This document shows positions 1 to 37,377 of a stretch of 37,377 nt of DNA, in pieces. This DNA comes from a virus. The stretch lies in the IMG/VR virus record IMGVR_UViG_3300032105_000006; one strand, written 5' to 3'. The position numbers and the translations under genes are program-made. Every line of letters begins with the position of its first letter. The first letter of the stretch is position 1. The notes below the pieces were generated by a model that ran no database searches, was not told where the DNA came from, and saw nothing but the letters and a program-made list of their open reading frames with translations.

Positions 1-113
1 TAGCCGTTGCCGTAGCCGTCGCCGTATCCGTAGCCGTAGCCGTAGCCGTAGCCGTTGCCGTAGCCGTCGCCGTATCCGTAGCCGTAGCCGTAGCCGTAGC
101 CGTAGCCGTCGCC
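1..113. repeat. Tandem hexanucleotide array (GCCGTA with GCCGTT/GCCGTC/TCCGTA variants). Nt 1-55 are identical to nt 37323-37377.
   Basis: Direct reading shows a 6-nt period over about 19 units. The 55-nt match between window start and end is exact. Confidence 0.95.
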
Positions 114-137
114 TACCGGCTTAAATTCGCCAGCCAT
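1..137 (-). CDS. Gly-Tyr repeat protein, 5' part. The ORF leaves the left edge and continues at 37322->37187 once the 55-nt overlap is collapsed (90 aa in total).
   Basis: ATG at 137-135 overlaps the TAA stop of ORF 137..454 (TAATG). Translation is MAGEFKPVGD(GY)n with periodic GDG/GNG. 137 nt + 136 nt = 273 nt, which is in frame. Confidence 0.6.
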   Translation of the reverse strand, partial: MAGEFKPVGDGYGYGYGYGYGYGDGYGNGYGYGYGYGYGDGYGNG

Positions 138-454
138 TACAGCCCCCATTCACTATCCACCGGGATAGAAAACAGTTCAGAATCAGCAGGCATGTCAACG
201 TCAGCCAGGGTCTTGAGAGTCACATTGTTGCTCTTCGGATTCTTAATGACGCCATCAAATCCAATGGACTCCCAGCGGAACACATGCAGTGCACGGGCGA
301 TCTTGATGCGGCCATTCTCGCGGGTCACATCGCCTGCGAAAATCCAGCCACGGTCACACACAACCACGTTGCGATTCCCGTTGGGCTTTACCTGGACCGC
401 ATCAGAGCGGACATATTTGATGTCGTCAATCGTAATCGTTTCGGGCTTGCTCAT
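137..454 (-). CDS. Hypothetical early protein (105 aa)
   Basis: ORF track. AAGGAG RBS upstream of ATG 454. Stop is coupled to the next ATG. Confidence 0.8.
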   Translation of the reverse strand: MSKPETITIDDIKYVRSDAVQVKPNGNRNVVVCDRGWIFAGDVTRENGRIKIARALHVFRWESIGFDGVIKNPKSNNVTLKTLADVDMPADSELFSIPVDSEWGL

Positions 455-536: not shown

Positions 537-1167
537 CATTATTTGTAACACCAGCAAGCAATGCTCCAATGCTTCTAGGTCCGCGCTCGATAGCAGTGAA
601 TCCGCCTTGGTAGACGTTTTTCGCGGCCTGCTCATTCCCGATCATTCTAGGCTCCGGCGCTTTTAGTCCGCGCTTTGCAAACAGTGCAGCCGATGCGGTT
701 TCCCCAATCAATACCTTCGGATATTCGTAGTCGCTGCGGCCAGCGTATGCGGAATAACTCTTGCAAAACTGGTGCTGTAGGTAGCTCAAGTTTTCCATGC
801 TGGTACGGCACATCTTCACCCATCCGCCACAATCGTTTACAGCGGCATTAATCGCGGCCTCATCAAAGCACACATCCGTATAGGCTCCGACGCTGCACAT
901 TGCGTCGTAAACCTTGCCCCAAGCCACCATAGAGCGATCCGTCTTTGTGCCTTGAAGAAGTCTAACAATGTCTGCCACCTTCGGCGCAAATTGGCCCTTG
1001 TCCGGGTCTTTGGCGTGAGCATTAAAAGCCTTGGACACGGCTTCAAACTCCAAGTCTTTGCAGGCATCCCAAAAAACGTTAAGCATGAACTCGGATGTGT
1101 CCTGCTTGTAGTAACTCATCACATCTGCAACCATCTGGAAAAAATCCTGTTTTTTACTGTATTCCAT
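529..1167 (-). CDS. Early protein, possibly a replication accessory or helicase-loader-type protein (function uncertain)
   Basis: ORF track. Overlaps the upstream DUF1376 gene by 14 nt. Weak resemblance to lambda P-type proteins around QFAPKVADIV. Confidence 0.65.
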   Translation of the reverse strand: MEYSKKQDFFQMVADVMSYYKQDTSEFMLNVFWDACKDLEFEAVSKAFNAHAKDPDKGQFAPKVADIVRLLQGTKTDRSMVAWGKVYDAMCSVGAYTDVCFDEAAINAAVNDCGGWVKMCRTSMENLSYLQHQFCKSYSAYAGRSDYEYPKVLIGETASAALFAKRGLKAPEPRMIGNEQAAKNVYQGGFTAIERGPRSIGALLAGVTNNVG

Positions 1168-1930
1168 GTCCGTCCTTTTCGAGCAACCGTTTCACCACTG
1201 CGCGGTTTGAGGCTTCCAATGCCTCCTGCTTGTTCAGCTTCGGCGGCGCACCTTTTGGCGGGAGCACCTTTGCCAGCCATTCCAGAGGCTGTAGCGGCTT
1301 AGCACGGATGCACTCTCGCAATGCGTCTACAAGCTCACCGTCACCGTGAGATTTCCGCAGGCCACCCAAGAACGTCCTAGCCTGCTTTTCAGGCGTCCCA
1401 GCGTTGGTAAGCAATGGGACCCCGTACCCGAAGATTATTTCGTCTGGAGTGAGCGGCGCTTTTGCGCCCGTACCTTTAGGTACGGAATTAAATGAAGTAG
1501 AAGATGAAGAAGAAGATGAAGGGGTTGGTTTTTGCTTATCCTTGAGGTTAACCTTGAGGTTAACCTTATCTGGAGACTTCAATGCAGGATTGCCGCCTAA
1601 CTTTCCTCCGGCAGCACGCATGTTTCTTAGGTTTTCGTCTCTTATCATGCGCCTTGACAAAATAGTTCCATCGGCATCAACGTCATAGACGCCTGCTGAT
1701 CGAAGTTCTTCTAGCCAACCTTCAACATCAGGCAAGGTTGATCCGACCATAGCCGCAAGGTTAGCAGGAAGGATAACCTTGTTACCAACCTTTAGATGCC
1801 CGTATGGATTGCCCTCATGCATAAAACATATCATGTCTATCCAAAGGCCTCGCGCACCAATAGAGCAGGTTCTAAGGGCCGTATCCCTTAGCCAGTCACT
1901 TGGGTAGAACTGAAATGAAGGTCGCTTCAT
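1154..1930 (-). CDS. DUF1376 (YdaU-like) replication-associated protein
   Basis: N-terminal RPSFQFYPSDWL signature. Start set at ATG 1930 (ATGA overlap with the HNH stop). The track ORF extends to 1948. Confidence 0.8.
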   Translation of the reverse strand: MKRPSFQFYPSDWLRDTALRTCSIGARGLWIDMICFMHEGNPYGHLKVGNKVILPANLAAMVGSTLPDVEGWLEELRSAGVYDVDADGTILSRRMIRDENLRNMRAAGGKLGGNPALKSPDKVNLKVNLKDKQKPTPSSSSSSSTSFNSVPKGTGAKAPLTPDEIIFGYGVPLLTNAGTPEKQARTFLGGLRKSHGDGELVDALRECIRAKPLQPLEWLAKVLPPKGAPPKLNKQEALEASNRAVVKRLLEKDGHGIQ

Positions 1931-2457
1931 TTTCCTGCCGCCTTGCACTTATTAATGCAAATCCCGCAGAAGTATCTAAACTGGCGCGAAAGACTCCAGT
2001 AGTTTCTTGCGCTTGCAATCTCTGCCGCATTCATTACTTCATCAAGTCCTAGCTTGTCAATGAAGTTTCTAATGCTTTGAAAATCGGCCTTGTTAAAGAC
2101 GTTTGCGTCTTGATTAAAAATATGGACTACATTCCAAGCAGCATCTTCCAGCCTGCTTCTTTTTGCCATGATTGCTTTTTGATAGCCAACGATCTGGGCT
2201 TCTGACTCAGCAATCTTTTTTGCCTTTTCTTCTAGGCTCTCAGGAATTGCCGTAAGAAGTCTTGCGCCTTTGCCAAAGTTGCATTCTTCACACGATGTGA
2301 CTAAGTTGTCAATATCGTTTGTTCCACCTTCAGCAACAGGATGTATATGATCTACATGCAAAAGAACGCCGGGTGGATGCGATCCGCAATATTGACACTC
2401 AAAACTATCGCGCTTGAATACTTCAAAGCGAAGTTTTTTAGAGATTGATTTTCTCAT
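1927..2457 (-). CDS. HNH endonuclease
   Basis: CQYCG...HVDHIHPVAEGGTNDIDNLVTSCEECNFGKG motif. AT-richer than its neighbours. Confidence 0.85.
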   Translation of the reverse strand: MRKSISKKLRFEVFKRDSFECQYCGSHPPGVLLHVDHIHPVAEGGTNDIDNLVTSCEECNFGKGARLLTAIPESLEEKAKKIAESEAQIVGYQKAIMAKRSRLEDAAWNVVHIFNQDANVFNKADFQSIRNFIDKLGLDEVMNAAEIASARNYWSLSRQFRYFCGICINKCKAAGK

Positions 2458-22278: not shown

Positions 22279-22812
22279 TTAATCTCCTTTGCGGATACAA
22301 ATAATCATTGTTACCCGCTCATAAGGTGTTTCATTTGTTACCCAATGAGTAAATTGGTTGTCAAACCAAAATAAATCACCGGGCTTTGTTTCAAGTTCTT
22401 CGCCTTCAAAACAAAATTTTTGACCGGGCGCACTGGTAATTTGAACTGCAAATTTTTGATAACGTCTAGCGTGCCATCCCGGATCAGTATGCGGCTTACA
22501 CATTTTCCCAGGAGGAATTCTTGTGATTAATACTCCGCCAAGTTCGTCACCTTCTGCAAACCTAAAAATATCATAAACAAGAGGCTTGATACCCAAAATA
22601 TCAGATGATGGATACCATTTGCTATCGTGAGCCTCTCCATCTACCGCTCTTTCCTGTTCTCCAAATCTTGCCCAAATATCATCTAAACCAAAATGCGGAC
22701 TTTTTTCATCCTCTGTCCTCGCAGTGTTTTGGTTCCATAAAGAAGGATTTTTTAGAAGTGCCCAATAAATAGGCGCAACATTAATACCCTCTTTAAGTAG
22801 TTTGATCTTCAT
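22279..22812 (-). CDS. Asp/Asn beta-hydroxylase-like (Asp_Arg_Hydrox family) 2OG/Fe(II) cupin oxygenase
   Basis: HTDPGWH...FAVQI...GDLFWFDNQFTHWVTNETPYERVTMIICI pattern. AT-rich. Confidence 0.7.
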   Translation of the reverse strand: MKIKLLKEGINVAPIYWALLKNPSLWNQNTARTEDEKSPHFGLDDIWARFGEQERAVDGEAHDSKWYPSSDILGIKPLVYDIFRFAEGDELGGVLITRIPPGKMCKPHTDPGWHARRYQKFAVQITSAPGQKFCFEGEELETKPGDLFWFDNQFTHWVTNETPYERVTMIICIRKGD

Positions 22813-33855: not shown

Positions 33856-33931
33856 TGGCCCGCCGTGCAGGAATCGAACCCACATCTAGACGGTAGAAAC
33901 GTCTTGTTCTAATCCTTTGAACTAACGGCAG
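33856..33931 (-). tRNA. tRNA-Arg (anticodon UCU), CCA encoded
   Basis: Manual cloverleaf. 7-bp acceptor, GTTC/GAAC D-stem, AGACG/CGTCT anticodon stem, loop UUUCUAC, TTCGATT T-loop. Confidence 0.85.
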
Positions 33932-33936
33932 TTATT

Positions 33937-34013
33937 TGGTGCGCTGTGGTGGACTCGAACCACCAGATAACAGGGTTTAAGCCTGCTGACTTTACCAATT
34001 TGTCTAACAGCGC
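33937..34013 (-). tRNA. Class-I (short variable arm) tRNA with anticodon UAA (nominally Leu), A73, CCA encoded
   Basis: Manual cloverleaf GCGCTGT/ACAGCGC, anticodon loop CUUAAAC, 5-nt variable loop, GGTGG-TTCGAGT-CCACC. Confidence 0.7.
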
Positions 34014-35822: not shown

Positions 35823-36007
35823 GACTGCTCCTGTGTGCATTTGGCGATCAATCCCCGAAGCGCACTCTTGGTTTCTTGCCAATGCCCGTCTTCAAGCGCA
35901 TCTTCCACCTCAATAACCGCGTGCAGCAACTCATCCCTCTCCTGCTGCAAACGCTCACACATGGCCTTGATCTTGTCTAGTGCGCTGGCTTCTACTTCGA
36001 TCTTCAT
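35819..36007 (-). CDS. Hypothetical coiled-coil protein (62 aa)
   Basis: ORF track. AAGGAA RBS. Confidence 0.65.
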   Translation of the reverse strand: MKIEVEASALDKIKAMCERLQQERDELLHAVIEVEDALEDGHWQETKSALRGLIAKCTQEQS

Positions 36008-36069
36008 TGCTGTTCCTTTGCTTTGGCGCGTGCCCTTCCACGCCGCACCACCTCTAAGTACACGCCTAA

Positions 36070-36112
36070 ATCATCGCCTCTCTATGGAATAAAACAATAG
36101 GTGCTTACCCTA
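36070..36112 (-). promoter_or_regulatory. Conserved box TAGGGTAAGCACCTA (36098-36112) plus -10-like GATGAT (36070-36075)
   Basis: Box centre to -10 is 30 bp. Confidence 0.5.
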
Positions 36113-36122
36113 GTCTGTGTTT

Positions 36123-36407
36123 TCATCCAGCCTTTAGCACATTCAGTGCACGTATCGCGGCCTCAGGGCCATCGACAAGGCAGACTGGGTAACCCTCGTA
36201 CAACTCAAAGAAACGCTGCTGTAGGGCCGTTTTCTTGCGCTGGCTGGCATATTTTGCGCCGTCCTTCACCTCGAACAGCGCGAACCGTCGATTAAACCCT
36301 ACCAGCAGGTCTACAGGCTTTCCAATGACCATTACCTTAGCTCCTGCGGCCTCTAGTGCGCTGATTACTTGCGCCTGATTGGCGTCTACACGGAGTGCGT
36401 ATCTCAA
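36123..36407 (-). CDS. VRR-NUC-type PD-(D/E)xK nuclease (94 aa)
   Basis: GKPVDLLVGF...ALFEVKDG...LQQRFF pattern and size. Confidence 0.65.
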   Translation of the reverse strand: MRYALRVDANQAQVISALEAAGAKVMVIGKPVDLLVGFNRRFALFEVKDGAKYASQRKKTALQQRFFELYEGYPVCLVDGPEAAIRALNVLKAG

Positions 36408-36408
36408 T

Positions 36409-36606
36409 TCAGCCCCCAGCTTTCTTTGCTTCTTCGCTCGATTTCCTCATAGCGCTCTTTAACTCTTGGGCAATTCCACAATACAACCCGCTCTGGTCTT
36501 TGTCTAGCTCTTGTGCCCTGTGCCATGCGTGGTGTCGCCATCCTGGTTCCTTTGATAGCTTGATTAGCCAGTCTAGGGTTGTTTGGCGGGCTGTGGTTAG
36601 GTTCAT
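36409..36606 (-). CDS. Hypothetical protein (65 aa)
   Basis: ORF track. Confidence 0.65.
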   Translation of the reverse strand: MNLTTARQTTLDWLIKLSKEPGWRHHAWHRAQELDKDQSGLYCGIAQELKSAMRKSSEEAKKAGG

Positions 36607-36710
36607 TTCCGCACAAGATCAATAGCCCTCTGTACTGCCTTTGCTTCCAGAAACTTCTGCTGTTTCTTGTAGTTGTCTCGGAGCTTGGTTAGCTTTTCTA
36701 GGATGGTCAT
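36603..36710 (-). CDS. Micro-ORF (35 aa)
   Basis: Own translation MTILEKLTKLRDNYKKQQKFLEAKAVQRAIDLVRK. ATGA overlaps at both ends. Confidence 0.5.
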   Translation of the reverse strand: MTILEKLTKLRDNYKKQQKFLEAKAVQRAIDLVRK

Positions 36711-36895
36711 TCTGCAAGCCTATAAACAACACGCTGATAAATACCATCGGCAGACACAACATCTTTTCTCATCAGACACTGAATCGCACTCCACGCTTCG
36801 CTAGGCTTCCATCCGGTTGTCTCTACTATCTCACGGAATCTTAGCTCACCGTGCTCTAGGAGGCGTTTTAGGGCATATGTCTTGGTCATGGTCAT
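36707..36895 (-). CDS. Small winged-helix DNA-binding-like protein (62 aa)
   Basis: Start moved to ATG 36895 (ATGA overlap). LLEHGELRFREIVETTGWKPSEAWSAIQCLMRKDVV. Confidence 0.6.
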   Translation of the reverse strand: MTMTKTYALKRLLEHGELRFREIVETTGWKPSEAWSAIQCLMRKDVVSADGIYQRVVYRLAE

Positions 36896-37161
36896 TGTTG
36901 ATCCTTTCTTGCAGCGTCGATTACTGCTCTTAGGCATCCAGGCAGGCAAGCAATGCGTTTAGGTTCTCCGCCGCTGATTTCTTTGTCAAGCCAATCAAGC
37001 CTCTCGGCATCTGCTTGCAGTTCTTCTACCTGAGCTTGCAAATCACGAATATTTTGTGCCGATTCTTGGCCTCGCTGCCAATATTGCCATCTAGAAAGCT
37101 CATCATTCATTGCCATGTTGTAAGGCATTTCAAGAACTCCAAAAAGCATTACATCGCTCAT
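36892..37161 (-). CDS. Hypothetical early protein (89 aa) with an RLDWLDK motif
   Basis: ORF track. Confidence 0.7.
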   Translation of the reverse strand: MSDVMLFGVLEMPYNMAMNDELSRWQYWQRGQESAQNIRDLQAQVEELQADAERLDWLDKEISGGEPKRIACLPGCLRAVIDAARKDQQ

Positions 37162-37186
37162 ACTTCCTCCTATTGGATGCCTTATC

Positions 37187-37377
37187 CTAGCTTCTGCGCT
37201 TGCGTGTATTGCCGGTAACAGTGCCGTAGCCGTAGCCGTTGCCGTAGCCGTCGCCGTATCCGTAGCCGTAGCCGTAGCCGTTGCCGTAGCCGTCGCCGTA
37301 TCCGTAGCCGTCGCCGTATCCGTAGCCGTTGCCGTAGCCGTCGCCGTATCCGTAGCCGTAGCCGTAGCCGTAGCCGT
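37187..37377 (-). CDS. Gly-Tyr repeat protein, 3' part (...GYGYGTVTGNTRKRRS, stop TAG at 37189-37187)
   Basis: Own translation of the minus strand. In frame with the 5' part at 137..1 after removing the 55-nt overlap. Confidence 0.6.
   Translation of the reverse strand, partial: GYGYGYGYGYGDGYGNGYGYGDGYGYGDGYGNGYGYGYGYGDGYGNGYGYGTVTGNTRKRRS
37223..37377. repeat. Tandem hexanucleotide array, the other side of the circular junction. Nt 37323-37377 duplicate nt 1-55.
   Basis: Direct reading. Confidence 0.95.

What the first reader, a model, noticed from the sequence alone, without database searches (positions are those of the whole stretch)
1..137. 90-aa (Gly-Tyr)n low-complexity protein encoded by a hexanucleotide array across the circular junction (second half at 37187-37377)
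What the sequence shows:
- On the minus strand, ATG 137-135 is TAATG-coupled to the stop of ORF 137..454. It opens MAGEFKPVGD followed by GY dipeptides, punctuated every few repeats by GDG or GNG.
- After collapsing the 55-nt end overlap, the frame continues in phase (137 + 136 = 273 nt) to ...GYGYGTVTGNTRKRRS and stop TAG at 37187.
- Composition is roughly 45% Gly and 35% Tyr, with periodic Asp/Asn and a basic tail.
- The gene sits inside the early/replication operon, just downstream of the DUF1376 and P-like genes.

I do not recognise any characterised phage protein of this type.

What is inference only:
- [G/S]Y[G/S] arrays drive condensate or hydrogel formation in FUS-type low-complexity domains.
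- Tyr-rich repeats can be oxidatively cross-linked.
- The same genome encodes an Asp/Asn beta-hydroxylase-like oxygenase (22279..22812), and this repeat offers regularly spaced Asp/Asn next to aromatic residues.

The repeat number may be mis-assembled.
Basis: partly seen in the sequence, partly recalled or inferred. Interest (0 to 1): 0.8.

Follow-up and report, generated by a model that had tools for sequence, protein, structure and literature searches.

The report
Conserved phage Gly-Tyr repeat protein
The hexanucleotide array at the ends of this circular phage genome is a real, early-expressed gene for a disordered (Gly-Tyr/Asp/Asn)n protein; the gene always follows a small Sm-like protein gene, occurs in well over a hundred phages, and has never been studied.

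Summary
The window has one exact 55-nt terminal overlap. Collapsing it gives a 273-nt minus-strand ORF of 90 aa, or 94 aa from an upstream ATG. Two independent contigs that span the junction carry the same array at the same length.

It is a conserved gene, not a chance ORF and not a DNA iteron.
- Relatives of the upstream gene ORF105 (137..454) number at least 1546 clusters. Of 96 fetched loci, 94 carry a G-[Y/D/N/S] repeat ORF immediately downstream; in the other two the contig ends first.
- These ORFs share an N-terminal F-[KR]-P-[VI]-G motif and a C-terminal G-T-V-S-x-N-R-x-R-R tail.
- The start codon overlaps the ORF105 stop.
- Codon periodicity in the flanking motifs shows that the GY frame is the one under selection.
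- Array length changes in 6-nt steps between otherwise identical cultured Rheinheimera Barba phages. There the pair (gp018/gp017) is transcribed early.

AlphaFold predicts the repeat protein as fully disordered and ORF105 as an Sm-like barrel. No third gene is conserved beside the pair. The Asp/Asn hydroxylase does not co-occur with it.

The function is unknown. My best inference is a self-associating, sticker-spacer scaffold or tether that works with its Sm-like partner.

The parts
1..137 (-). 5' half of the GY-repeat gene: ATG 137-135, N-terminal MAGEFKPVG, then G-X dipeptide codons running off the window start
37187..37377 (-). 3' half of the GY-repeat gene: G-X dipeptide codons, tail GTVTGNTRKRRS, stop TAG at 37189-37187. 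Bases 37323-37377 duplicate 1-55.
   Evidence: junction-spanning contigs L221 and L222
1..113 (-). Hexanucleotide array, left part: (GGC-NAC)n on the coding strand, TAGCCG on the + strand
   Evidence: TRF period 6, 18.8 copies
37223..37377 (-). Hexanucleotide array, right part
   Evidence: TRF period 6, 25.8 copies
111..125 (-). Conserved N-terminal motif F-K-P-V-G (family consensus [FYM]-[KR]-P-[VI]-G)
   Evidence: 47 unique relatives. Codon third positions vary: Pro is CCA/CCT/CCG, and the basic residue is encoded by AGR, CGN and AAR.
37187..37225 (-). Conserved C-terminal tail G-T-V-T-G-N-T-R-K-R-R-S plus stop (family consensus G-T-[VIC]-S-x-N-x-R-[KR]-R)
147..149 (-). Alternative upstream in-frame ATG (MGAV-MAGEF..., 94 aa), formed by the Trp codon region of ORF105
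143..147 (-). GGGGG run inside the invariant Trp-Gly codons of ORF105, 6-10 nt upstream of ATG 137-135. It is a Shine-Dalgarno-like element for the coupled gene.
   Evidence: 45 of 58 unique relatives have an SD-like G-run at this spacing; 34 of 58 have a TGATG/TAATG stop-start overlap.
137..454 (-). ORF105, the obligate upstream partner: a 105-aa protein with a predicted Sm/LSm-like beta-barrel and no Pfam family
1..55 (.). Terminal overlap identical to 37323-37377 (circular-contig signature)

Best explanation
What it is (shown, about 0.95 confidence)
- It is a genuine protein-coding gene. It is the second gene of a conserved two-gene phage module.
- ORF105, a small Sm-like beta-barrel protein, is followed by a 30-136-aa protein. 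The second gene starts at an overlapping stop/start (TAATG/TGATG) with an embedded SD-like GGGG.
- The second protein has three parts:
  - an N-terminal [FYM]-[KR]-P-[VI]-G motif;
  - a variable (Gly-X)n array, with X about 53% Tyr, 20% Asp, 19% Asn and 5% Ser;
  - a mostly Arg/Lys-rich tail, G-T-V-S-x-N-R-x-R-R.
- The array is an in-frame hexanucleotide VNTR. It grows and shrinks by slippage while the frame is preserved.
- In the one cultured relative with transcriptome data (Barba18A) the module is transcribed early, and here it lies in the early/replication operon.

How it most likely works (inferred, about 0.35 confidence)
- The array is an intrinsically disordered sticker-spacer polymer. 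Tyr residues are the stickers, Gly the spacers, and Asp/Asn/Ser act as solubility gatekeepers.
- The two conserved termini act as short binding motifs. I propose the N-motif binds the co-translated Sm-like partner, which would be oligomeric if it behaves like Sm/Hfq rings. I propose the basic tail binds nucleic acid or an acidic target.
- Together they would form a multivalent assembly, either condensate-like or amyloid-like, in the infected cytoplasm. This assembly would concentrate or sequester nucleic acid or host factors during early infection.
- Array length would act as a quickly evolvable tuning knob.
For: Gene and frame
- ORF reconstruction.
- Junction-spanning contigs with the same length and frame.

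Conserved pairing
- 79 of 80 IMG/VR loci and 15 of 16 genome loci found through ORF105 carry the GY ORF directly downstream. In the two exceptions the contig ends first.
- The cultured Barba phages have the pair annotated as CDS gp018/gp017.

Protein-level selection
- The N-motif shows 3-periodic variability and synonymous Pro/Arg codon diversity.
- The tail keeps its motif with varied Thr codons.
- Lineages using other codons still encode G-Y: GGA-TAT in L051 and GGC-TAT in L016/L040. A codon-heterogeneous array in a Novosphingobium prophage does too.

Coupling
-.

VNTR behaviour
- Barba isolates with 100% identical flanks differ by single hexamers at two different sites.
- L023/24/26/27, whose ORF105 products match the query at the same 60.4% identity, have GY proteins of 40, 54, 54 and 70 aa.

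Expression
- Barba18A gp017 and gp018 peak at t1-t2 and then decline (PMC9305737 Table S2; gene numbering checked).

Disorder and composition
- AF2 pLDDT is 31.7 with no secondary structure.
- Composition is conserved but residue order is random.

Partner fold
- AF2 pLDDT is 80. The top 50 PDB hits are Sm/LSm proteins or Sm-based designs.

Self-association chemistry
- The synthetic GYGYGYG peptide forms amyloid fibrils (PMC8163036, PMC10510724).
- The Tyr-Arg sticker grammar of FUS-family proteins is my own knowledge (Wang et al. 2018, Cell).

Precedent
- Phase separation by a phage protein, SPO1 Gp27 (PMC13401047).

Modularity
- The same G-[YDNS] arrays are fused to at least four unrelated phage domains.
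Against: - There is no experimental evidence of translation, assembly or binding for any family member.
- AlphaFold disorder is also what a mere flexible linker would give.
- The Sm-like assignment is weak: Foldseek E about 1e-3, TM normalised by the query 0.45-0.5, and no sequence-level hit to Pfam or PDB.
- Oligomerisation, and binding of the N-motif to ORF105, are guesses.
- Some family members lack a basic tail, for example GTVSSTLK and GTVGSLKMLNSGETE. Nucleic-acid binding therefore cannot be universal.
- Tyr at every second residue is far denser than in known phase-separating domains. That could favour insoluble aggregation or toxicity.
- The extreme C-ending codon bias is not fully explained by a protein-only model: GGC 90% in the arrays against 38% in the adjacent gene.
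Confidence: 0.45

Rival explanations
1. Passive tether or adaptor. The two conserved termini are the only functional parts, acting as short linear motifs that bind two different partners. The array is just a flexible spacer whose length drifts by slippage.
For: - The termini are the only positionally conserved parts.
- L008 keeps both termini with only about 4 dipeptides.
- Residue order in the array is random.
- AF2 predicts disorder.
Against: - A neutral spacer would not keep about 50% Tyr and exclude nearly all other residues across many lineages whose ORF105 products are only 53-88% identical to the query.
- The same Tyr-rich array is attached to several unrelated domains. That suggests the array itself carries a function.
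Confidence: 0.2
2. Anti-host or anti-defence decoy. The acidic, aromatic, disordered polymer acts as a competitive inhibitor, sponge or mimic that titrates a host enzyme, for example a nucleic-acid-binding or Tyr-directed enzyme. ORF105 would serve as chaperone or co-inhibitor.
For: - The pair lies in variable early regions full of small accessory genes, with no conserved third neighbour.
- It is expressed early.
- Asp makes up about 20% of X positions.
- It diversifies rapidly, as expected for arms-race genes.
Against: - There is no PADLOC or anti-defence family match.
- No target is known.
- Length variation by slippage is mutation-driven and does not by itself indicate an arms race.
Confidence: 0.15
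3. The array works at the DNA or RNA level, as origin iterons, a protein-binding array or a recombination hotspot. The ORF would then be incidental.
For: - Codon choice is strongly uniform: GGC 90%, TAC 89%, GAC 91% and AAC 84%, against 38-51% in the adjacent gene.
- The +1 frame (Ala-Thr) and one reverse frame are also always open.
- The array lies next to replication genes.
Against: - The non-repeat flanks are conserved as protein in the GY frame, with synonymous variation.
- Start-stop coupling is conserved.
- The hexamer differs between lineages (GGA-TAT, GGC-TAT, and a heterogeneous prophage array) while the peptide pattern stays the same.
- A 6-nt unit is unlike iterons, which in my own knowledge are about 17-22 bp.
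- The pair also occurs in Barba, far from an initiator gene.
- The mRNA is not unusually structured (z = +1.36), and there is no Rfam hit.
Confidence: 0.04
4. Precursor of a modified or exported peptide: a RiPP, a microcin-like product, or a Gly/Tyr-rich antimicrobial peptide.
For: - It is small, with a short conserved N-terminal stretch, a repetitive core and a conserved C-terminal stretch.
- From my own knowledge, Gly/Tyr-rich antimicrobial peptides exist in nematodes.
Against: - No modifying enzyme, protease or exporter is conserved nearby. Nothing besides ORF105 is found in more than 10 of about 77 loci.
- ORF105 is Sm-like, not a PqqD-type recognition element.
- I see no signal peptide or double-glycine leader in the sequences (read by eye; no prediction tool run).
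- It is in an early operon.
Confidence: 0.03
5. Assembly artefact. The contig merely broke in a repeat, and the reconstructed ORF joins two unrelated ends.
For: - The contig ends lie inside a repeat that holds internal 59-nt duplicates.
- Many related contigs also break in the array.
Against: - The two ends supply exactly the complementary halves of the family architecture. The left end has the N-motif after ORF105, and the right end has the tail.
- Two other contigs span the array with the same length.
Confidence: 0.01

Closest known systems
FUS-type [G/S]Y[G/S] prion-like low-complexity domains (sticker-spacer phase-separating scaffolds)
   Same: - Gly/Tyr-dominated and polar.
- Predicted disordered.
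- Tyr in the array plus Arg in a separate segment, the two sticker types of the FUS-family grammar (own knowledge).
- Composition is conserved but residue order is not.
   Different: - No homology.
- Strict dipeptide register, with Tyr at about every fourth residue overall and runs of GYGY. This is much denser than in FUS.
- Asp/Asn replace Gln/Ser.
- Only 30-136 aa, and a stand-alone phage protein.
- Encoded by a slippage-prone hexamer VNTR.
- Phase separation is untested.
Synthetic prion-inspired heptapeptides GYGYGYG / NYNYNYN / SYSYSYS (PMC8163036, PMC10510724)
   Same: The alternating X-Tyr sequence is identical to the array core. Those peptides self-assemble into amyloid-like fibrils.
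   Different: The peptides are 7-mers made in vitro. The natural arrays are interrupted at random by Asp/Asn/Ser, carry conserved termini and sit in a cellular context. No assembly data exist for them.
Sm/LSm/Hfq proteins with Gly-rich tails (eukaryotic Sm RG tails; Acinetobacter Hfq with a Gly-rich C-terminal repeat, own knowledge)
   Same: A small Sm-like barrel goes together with a Gly-rich low-complexity polypeptide.
   Different: - Here the barrel and the repeat are separate, translationally coupled genes. No fusions appeared among the 150 listed representatives (of 298 clusters), of which I read the 9 atypical sequences.
- There is no sequence similarity to Sm/Hfq.
- The repeat is Tyr/Asp/Asn-based, not Arg/Gly-based.
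- RNA binding and ring formation are untested.
Rheinheimera phage Barba gp018/gp017 (hypothetical proteins, GenBank MK719701, MK719729)
   Same: It is the same two-gene module. gp018 is 43% identical to ORF105 over residues 1-61. gp017 is a 69-71-aa G-[YND] repeat protein.
   Different: - Barba is an 80-kb myovirus of a gammaproteobacterium.
- gp017 lacks the FKPVG motif and the basic tail, and ends in ...GYGYGD.
- There is a 3-nt spacer instead of a stop/start overlap.
- It has never been characterised. Neither Barba paper's main text mentions gp017 or gp018.
Gly/Tyr-rich structural proteins of eukaryotes (trematode eggshell precursors, plant GRPs, insect cuticle proteins), which are cross-linked through Tyr
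   Same: GYGYG-type sequences with interspersed Asp/Asn/Lys.
   Different: Those are secreted and are cross-linked by tyrosinase or peroxidase. Here I see no signal peptide in the sequences, no oxidase is conserved nearby, and the setting is early and cytoplasmic.

Membership tests
ORF105-coupled phage GY-repeat protein family (defined here) | Gene immediately downstream of an ORF105 homologue, same strand, start overlapping or within a few nt of its stop | tested here: met
   TAATG at 139-135. 34 of 58 unique relatives have the same 1-nt overlap.
ORF105-coupled phage GY-repeat protein family (defined here) | N-terminal [FYM]-[KR]-P-[VI]-G, then a (G-X)n core with X mostly Y/D/N/S, then a G-T-[VIC]-S/T...R-x-R-R tail | tested here: met
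   The window protein is MAGEFKPVG-(GX)35-GTVTGNTRKRRS.
FUS-like prion-like low-complexity domain | Low-complexity, polar, Gly/Tyr-rich composition predicted to be disordered | tested here: met
   G 42%, Y 28%, D+N 12%. AF2 pLDDT 31.7 with no secondary structure.
FUS-like prion-like low-complexity domain | Demonstrated reversible phase separation, hydrogel or cross-beta polymer formation | not testable with these tools
   Needs purified protein or in-cell imaging.
FUS-like prion-like low-complexity domain | Common descent or sequence-family membership | tested here: not met
   No Pfam or NCBIfam family; only low-complexity noise (TrAA12 at 21 bits, below its cut-off). Every one of the 120 listed homologues is unnamed or called 'hypothetical protein', mostly from metagenome collections with a few NCBI records.
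Sm/LSm/Hfq fold (for the partner ORF105) | Small strongly bent beta-barrel superimposable on Sm proteins | tested here: inconclusive
   AF2 pLDDT 80. The best PDB matches are Sm/LSm (3by7, 1i8f, 1d3b) at E 1e-3 to 1e-2, with TM 0.45-0.5 normalised by the query and 0.6-0.7 by the target.
Sm/LSm/Hfq fold (for the partner ORF105) | Sm1/Sm2 sequence motifs, or a profile match to the LSM/Hfq families | tested here: not met
   No Pfam hit for any of 42 members, even at E <= 5. No PDB sequence hit.
Sm/LSm/Hfq fold (for the partner ORF105) | Ring oligomer that binds RNA | not testable with these tools
   No multimer prediction or biochemistry was available.
RiPP / microcin precursor | Conserved adjacent modifying enzyme, recognition element, protease or exporter | tested here: not met
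   Clustering of all neighbouring ORFs in about 77 loci found no family in more than 10 loci.
Replication-origin iterons | Repeat conserved as DNA, independent of reading frame, and associated with the initiator gene | tested here: not met
   Protein-level conservation of the flanks. Different hexamers encode the same peptide. The module is also present in Barba, away from any initiator.
Substrate of the phage Asp/Asn beta-hydroxylase-like enzyme | Co-occurrence of the hydroxylase and the GY gene across phages | tested here: not met
   Hydroxylase homologues occur in 4 GenBank phages, none of which has ORF105. The 115 Barba genomes with the pair have no hydroxylase hit.

The most novel reading that the evidence does not exclude
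G-[Y/D/N/S] dipeptide arrays may be a previously unrecognised, widespread cohesive module of phage early proteins. The module occurs stand-alone next to an Sm-like partner, as here. It also occurs fused to at least four unrelated domains of unknown function, DUF7666 among them. Proteins carrying it would co-assemble into a phage-built membraneless compartment or fibrillar matrix in the infected cell. Hexamer slippage would give each phage population a standing range of assembly strengths.
Probability: 0.15. Interest if true: 0.85.

Novelty: new variant of a known kind. Interest (0 to 1): 0.62.

Why it matters
Low-complexity Tyr/Gly domains are central to eukaryotic condensate biology. Whether phages use the same physics is only starting to be asked; one case, SPO1 Gp27, was published in 2026 (PMC13401047).

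This family offers three things:
- a minimal, natural (Gly-Tyr)n polymer of 30-136 aa with two short conserved end motifs;
- natural length variants between otherwise identical cultured phages, the Barba isolates that infect the cultured host Rheinheimera sp. BAL341;
- a defined partner protein.

That makes the sequence-to-assembly relationship directly testable in a simple system. It would also assign a first function to the ORF105 family (at least 1546 clusters) and to its coupled GY gene, both currently labelled hypothetical.

There is a practical point too. The array systematically breaks short-read assemblies of these phages, so contig ends fall inside the gene and it will be under-annotated.

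Tried and rejected
Searches that found nothing useful
- Megablast of both flanks against GenBank phages gave no match.
- The downstream 89-aa gene has no IMG/VR relatives, so it is not part of the module.
- Pfam, PHROGs, NCBIfam and PADLOC on the GY protein gave only low-complexity noise.
- The search for related loci with the GY protein failed because tblastn masks the repeat. Its single hit, L098, is an unrelated pentapeptide-like repeat.

Tests that turned out uninformative
- Counting stops in alternative frames does not identify the coding frame. The +1 (Ala-Thr) frame and one reverse frame never contain stops, because of GGC/NAC codon use. I used codon periodicity of the flanking motifs instead.
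- His (CAC) is 24-fold rarer than GAC or AAC. I did not use this as an argument for protein-level selection, because GGC-CAC creates GGCC, so site avoidance could explain it.

Ideas checked and dropped
- Regular spacing of Asp/Asn: not different from shuffles.
- ORF105-GY fusion proteins or a programmed frameshift: no fusion among the 150 listed representatives, only tandem ORF105 duplications in the sequences I read. I also saw no canonical slippery heptamer at the 3' end of ORF105 in the window or in the upstream sequences.
- A structured RNA: z = +1.36 and no Rfam hit.
- The hydroxylase link.
- Literature searches for GYGYGYG, GYGDGYG, phage Gly/Tyr repeats and prion-like domains in phages. 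No description of this family turned up.
Full report
**1. The observation**

The window's first 55 bases equal its last 55, and no other overlap length matches. Removing one copy gives a 37322-bp circle.

- On the minus strand, ATG 137-135 overlaps the TAA stop of ORF 137..454 (TAATG).
- It opens a 273-nt frame that crosses the junction and ends at TAG 37189-37187.
- The product is MAGEFKPVGD, then 34 further Gly-X dipeptides, then GTVTGNTRKRRS: 90 aa, with Gly 42%, Tyr 28%, 6 Asp and 5 Asn.
- TRF reports period-6 arrays at 1-113 and 37223-37377.
- An in-frame ATG 12 nt upstream (149-147) would give 94 aa.

The array contains exact internal repeats of up to 59 nt, so copy number could in principle be mis-assembled. 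The two copies of the longest one lie 138 nt apart, a multiple of 6.

Looking up the exact ORF105 protein found other contigs of the same phage. In two of them the array is internal: ERZ650195 NODE_119, which is cut at a different point of the circle, and ERZ23497985 scaffold_1137, from another sample. Both align without gaps to my circularised junction, and each differs from the window in the array by one TAC/GAC change. Frame and length are therefore reproduced.

**2. It is a conserved gene, and half of a two-gene module**

ORF105 has 294 confirmed relatives in IMG/VR. It has at least 1546 clusters at 90% identity in the protein collection, all unnamed and without Pfam domains, and 298 clusters at 50% identity.

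- In 79 of the 80 best IMG/VR loci, whose ORF105 products are 53-88% identical to the query, a G-[Y/D/N/S] repeat ORF follows immediately. The exception is a contig that ends 35 nt after ORF105.
- The same holds in 15 of 16 loci from genome assemblies. One of these is a prophage in a Novosphingobium isolate whose array is degenerate and codon-heterogeneous.
- Many contigs end inside the array, so it is a systematic assembly breakpoint.
- Clustering all neighbouring ORFs found no third gene present in more than 10 of about 77 loci. The module is these two genes only, set in variable early regions.

The only cultured relatives are the Rheinheimera Barba myoviruses, 115 genomes in all. Their gp018 resembles ORF105 (43% identity over residues 1-61). 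Their gp017 is MEPESLAIKIT-GNGYGNGYGYGYG...GYGYGD. Both are annotated as hypothetical proteins, and neither Barba paper's main text mentions gp017 or gp018.

**3. Family anatomy**

The relatives share three parts:
- an N-terminal [FYM]-[KR]-P-[VI]-G motif;
- a core of about 4 to about 60 Gly-X dipeptides;
- a tail G-T-[VIC]-S-x-N-x-R-[KR]-R, usually with 3-6 basic residues, although some members have a non-basic variant.

Over 36 arrays in strict register, X is Tyr 53%, Asp 20%, Asn 19% and Ser 5%. The order of Tyr versus the other residues is indistinguishable from a shuffle (mean z of the longest Tyr run = -0.09). Composition is conserved and position is not.

In 34 of 58 unique relatives the start overlaps the ORF105 stop as TGATG or TAATG. 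The invariant Trp-Gly codons at the end of ORF105 place a GGGG run 6-10 nt upstream. That run is SD-like in 45 of 58. This is classic translational coupling.

**4. Which frame, and protein or DNA?**

Stop counting is uninformative. Because the arrays are (GGC-NAC)n, the +1 frame (Ala-Thr) and one reverse frame are also always open. Tyr/Asp/Asn differ at a base that would be a silent third position in the Ala-Thr frame.

The flanks decide the question.
- In the five codons of the N-motif, variability is 3-periodic in the GY frame. Entropies at third positions are 1.67, 1.72, 1.56, 1.55 and 0.63, against 0 at the first two positions of Pro and Gly.
- Pro is encoded by CCA, CCT or CCG. The basic residue is encoded by AGR, CGN or AAR. 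The Thr of the tail is encoded by ACT, ACA, ACG or ACC.
- Lineages with a different hexamer still encode Gly-Tyr: GGA-TAT in L051, GGC-TAT in L016/L040, and mixed codons in the Novosphingobium prophage.
- The array mRNA is not unusually structured (z = +1.36), and nothing in Rfam matches.

That criterion was relatives keeping the DNA array but with frameshifts or stops in the GY frame.

One DNA-level oddity remains. C-ending codons dominate the arrays: GGC 90%, TAC 89%, GAC 91% and AAC 84%. In the adjacent ORF105 genes the figures are 38-51%, and flank GC ranges from 33 to 68%. Descent of GAC/AAC from TAC, plus homogenisation by slippage, explains part of this but perhaps not all.

**5. A hypervariable in-frame VNTR**

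- Barba isolates with 100% identical upstream sequence carry arrays that differ by one hexamer, inserted at two different places (Barba15S and 10-8B against Barba1A). A third isolate has an AAC-to-TAC change.
- The IMG/VR contigs L023, L024, L026 and L027, whose ORF105 products match the query at the same 60.4% identity, have GY proteins of 40, 54, 54 and 70 aa.
- The other assemblies of this very phage differ from the window by one TAC/GAC change.

Length therefore changes quickly, always by whole dipeptides.

**6. Expression**

The Barba18A infection transcriptome is in PMC9305737, Table S2. gp017 reaches log-cpm about 10 and gp018 about 13. Both are highest at the first two time points and then decline, the pattern those authors call early (gene numbering verified). 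In the window, no promoter-like or terminator-like site turned up on the gene's downstream side (36000-37377). It lies about 70 nt downstream of the replisome-organizer-like and DUF6475/helicase-loader-like genes.

**7. Structure**

- AlphaFold2 with a small family alignment predicts the GY protein as entirely disordered (mean pLDDT 31.7, no secondary structure).
- ORF105 is modelled at pLDDT 80 as an all-beta barrel.
- Its best PDB matches are Sm/LSm proteins (3by7, 1i8f, 1d3b and others). E values are 1e-3 to 1e-2, and TM is 0.45-0.5 normalised by the query and 0.6-0.7 by the target.
- Among predicted viral structures it matches the Barba protein and DUF6948 proteins.
- There is no sequence-level match to Pfam or PDB. 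The Sm-like label is therefore a fold-level lead, not a membership.
- No ORF105-GY fusions appear among the 150 listed representatives, of which I read the 9 atypical sequences; two of those are tandem ORF105 duplications.

**8. Mechanism**

Shown:
- a translated-frame, disordered, Tyr/Gly/Asp/Asn polymer with two conserved end motifs;
- co-expression with a small beta-barrel protein;
- early transcription in the cultured relative;
- rapid evolution in length.

Inferred:
- The alternating X-Tyr sequence is the one that makes synthetic GYGYGYG peptides assemble into amyloid-like fibrils (PMC8163036, PMC10510724).
- Tyr together with Arg are the sticker residues of FUS-family phase separation (own knowledge).
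- Asp/Asn/Ser interruptions would moderate aggregation.

I therefore favour a multivalent scaffold. ORF105, possibly an oligomer, would hold the N-motifs. The Tyr-rich arms would self-associate. The basic tips would bind nucleic acid or an acidic partner. The result would be a condensate-like or fibrillar assembly early in infection. I give this about 0.35.

The main rivals are a passive two-motif tether (0.2) and an anti-host decoy or inhibitor (0.15). DNA-level function, RiPP or bacteriocin precursor, and assembly artefact are each unlikely, for the reasons given above and in the rival list.

The proposed link to the Asp/Asn beta-hydroxylase-like gene is not supported. That gene is real (22279..22812; PF05118, 33 bits) but lies among late genes. 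Its homologues occur in 4 GenBank phages that lack ORF105, and the 115 Barba genomes that carry the pair lack it.

**9. A wider pattern**

- 37 have ORF105 upstream.
- 29 have too little upstream DNA to tell.
- 53 have no ORF105.

In those 53 loci, and in proteins, the same kind of array appears in other architectures:
- at the C-terminus of a '...VVDVLDxGACIDGV...' domain;
- at the N-terminus of a roughly 150-aa 'IKSFNGExVY...' domain;
- at the N-terminus of a '...WRSxxKGxPSNGG...' domain;
- at the N-terminus of a '...VGCExHTIxxWRxNW...' domain;
- after DUF7666 (PF24703).

All of these are of unknown function. The array thus behaves as a portable module. That argues that it has an activity of its own, and it motivates the more novel reading.

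**10. Novelty and verdict**

The feature is real, conserved and widespread, and it is already present as an unnamed 'hypothetical protein' in GenBank phages. No publication, Pfam, PHROG or NCBIfam family describes it.

It resembles known Tyr/Gly low-complexity domains in composition and in predicted disorder. It differs from them in its strict dipeptide register, its VNTR genetics, its end motifs and its obligate Sm-like partner. I rate it a new variant of a known kind, with interest 0.62. Identity is secure, function is open, and the system is experimentally tractable in Barba/Rheinheimera.

Noticed in passing
IMG/VR loci L100, L104, L112, L120, L130, L135, L136, L143, L158, L167, L169, L170, L177, L178; proteins P0273, P0283, P0295, P0374, P0377: The same G-[Y/D/N/S] dipeptide arrays occur in at least five other phage protein architectures. 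They are fused N- or C-terminally to unrelated domains of unknown function, one of which is DUF7666 (PF24703). None of these has ORF105 nearby.
   Followed up: partly
window 22279-22812 (-): Asp/Arg beta-hydroxylase-like gene (PF05118, E 5e-8, 33 bits) among late/structural genes. The closest GenBank relatives are in a Manatee Spring Caudoviricetes genome, Limnohabitans phage DC33 and Pseudomonas phage PfAn1. It is not co-distributed with the GY module.
   Followed up: partly
window 33856-34013 (-): Two adjacent tRNA genes, tRNA-Arg(TCT) and tRNA-Leu(TAA). ARAGORN and Rfam agree.
   Followed up: no
window 1492-1567 (within ORF 1154..1948, -): Two short 12-nt tandem duplications (ATGAAGNAGAAG x2 and TTAnCCTTGAGG x2) lie inside the replisome-organizer-like gene, next to a poly-Ser linker. 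This is a more conventional place than the GY array to look for origin iterons.
   Followed up: no
arrays in L001-L080 versus the adjacent ORF105 genes: The arrays show an extreme preference for C-ending codons (GGC 90%, TAC 89%, GAC 91%, AAC 84%, against 38-51% next door), although flank GC ranges from 33 to 68%. CAC (His, which would create GGCC) is 24 times rarer than GAC or AAC. This is only partly explained by slippage.
   Followed up: partly
proteins P0121 (209 aa) and P0122 (247 aa): Some relatives carry two tandem copies of the ORF105 domain in one polypeptide. That is compatible with a domain that normally works as an oligomer.
   Followed up: no
window 1927-2457 (-): An HNH endonuclease gene (PF01844, E 1e-15) lies immediately upstream of the replication genes, and its end overlaps the start of the replisome-organizer-like ORF.
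   Followed up: no
L221, L223, L224 (ENA ERZ650195, ERZ25043466; JGI 3300010931): The same phage was assembled in several public datasets at 37377, 37377 and 37369 nt, cut at different points of the circle. Two of the three contigs end inside the GY array, which shows that the array is a recurrent contig breakpoint.
   Followed up: partly
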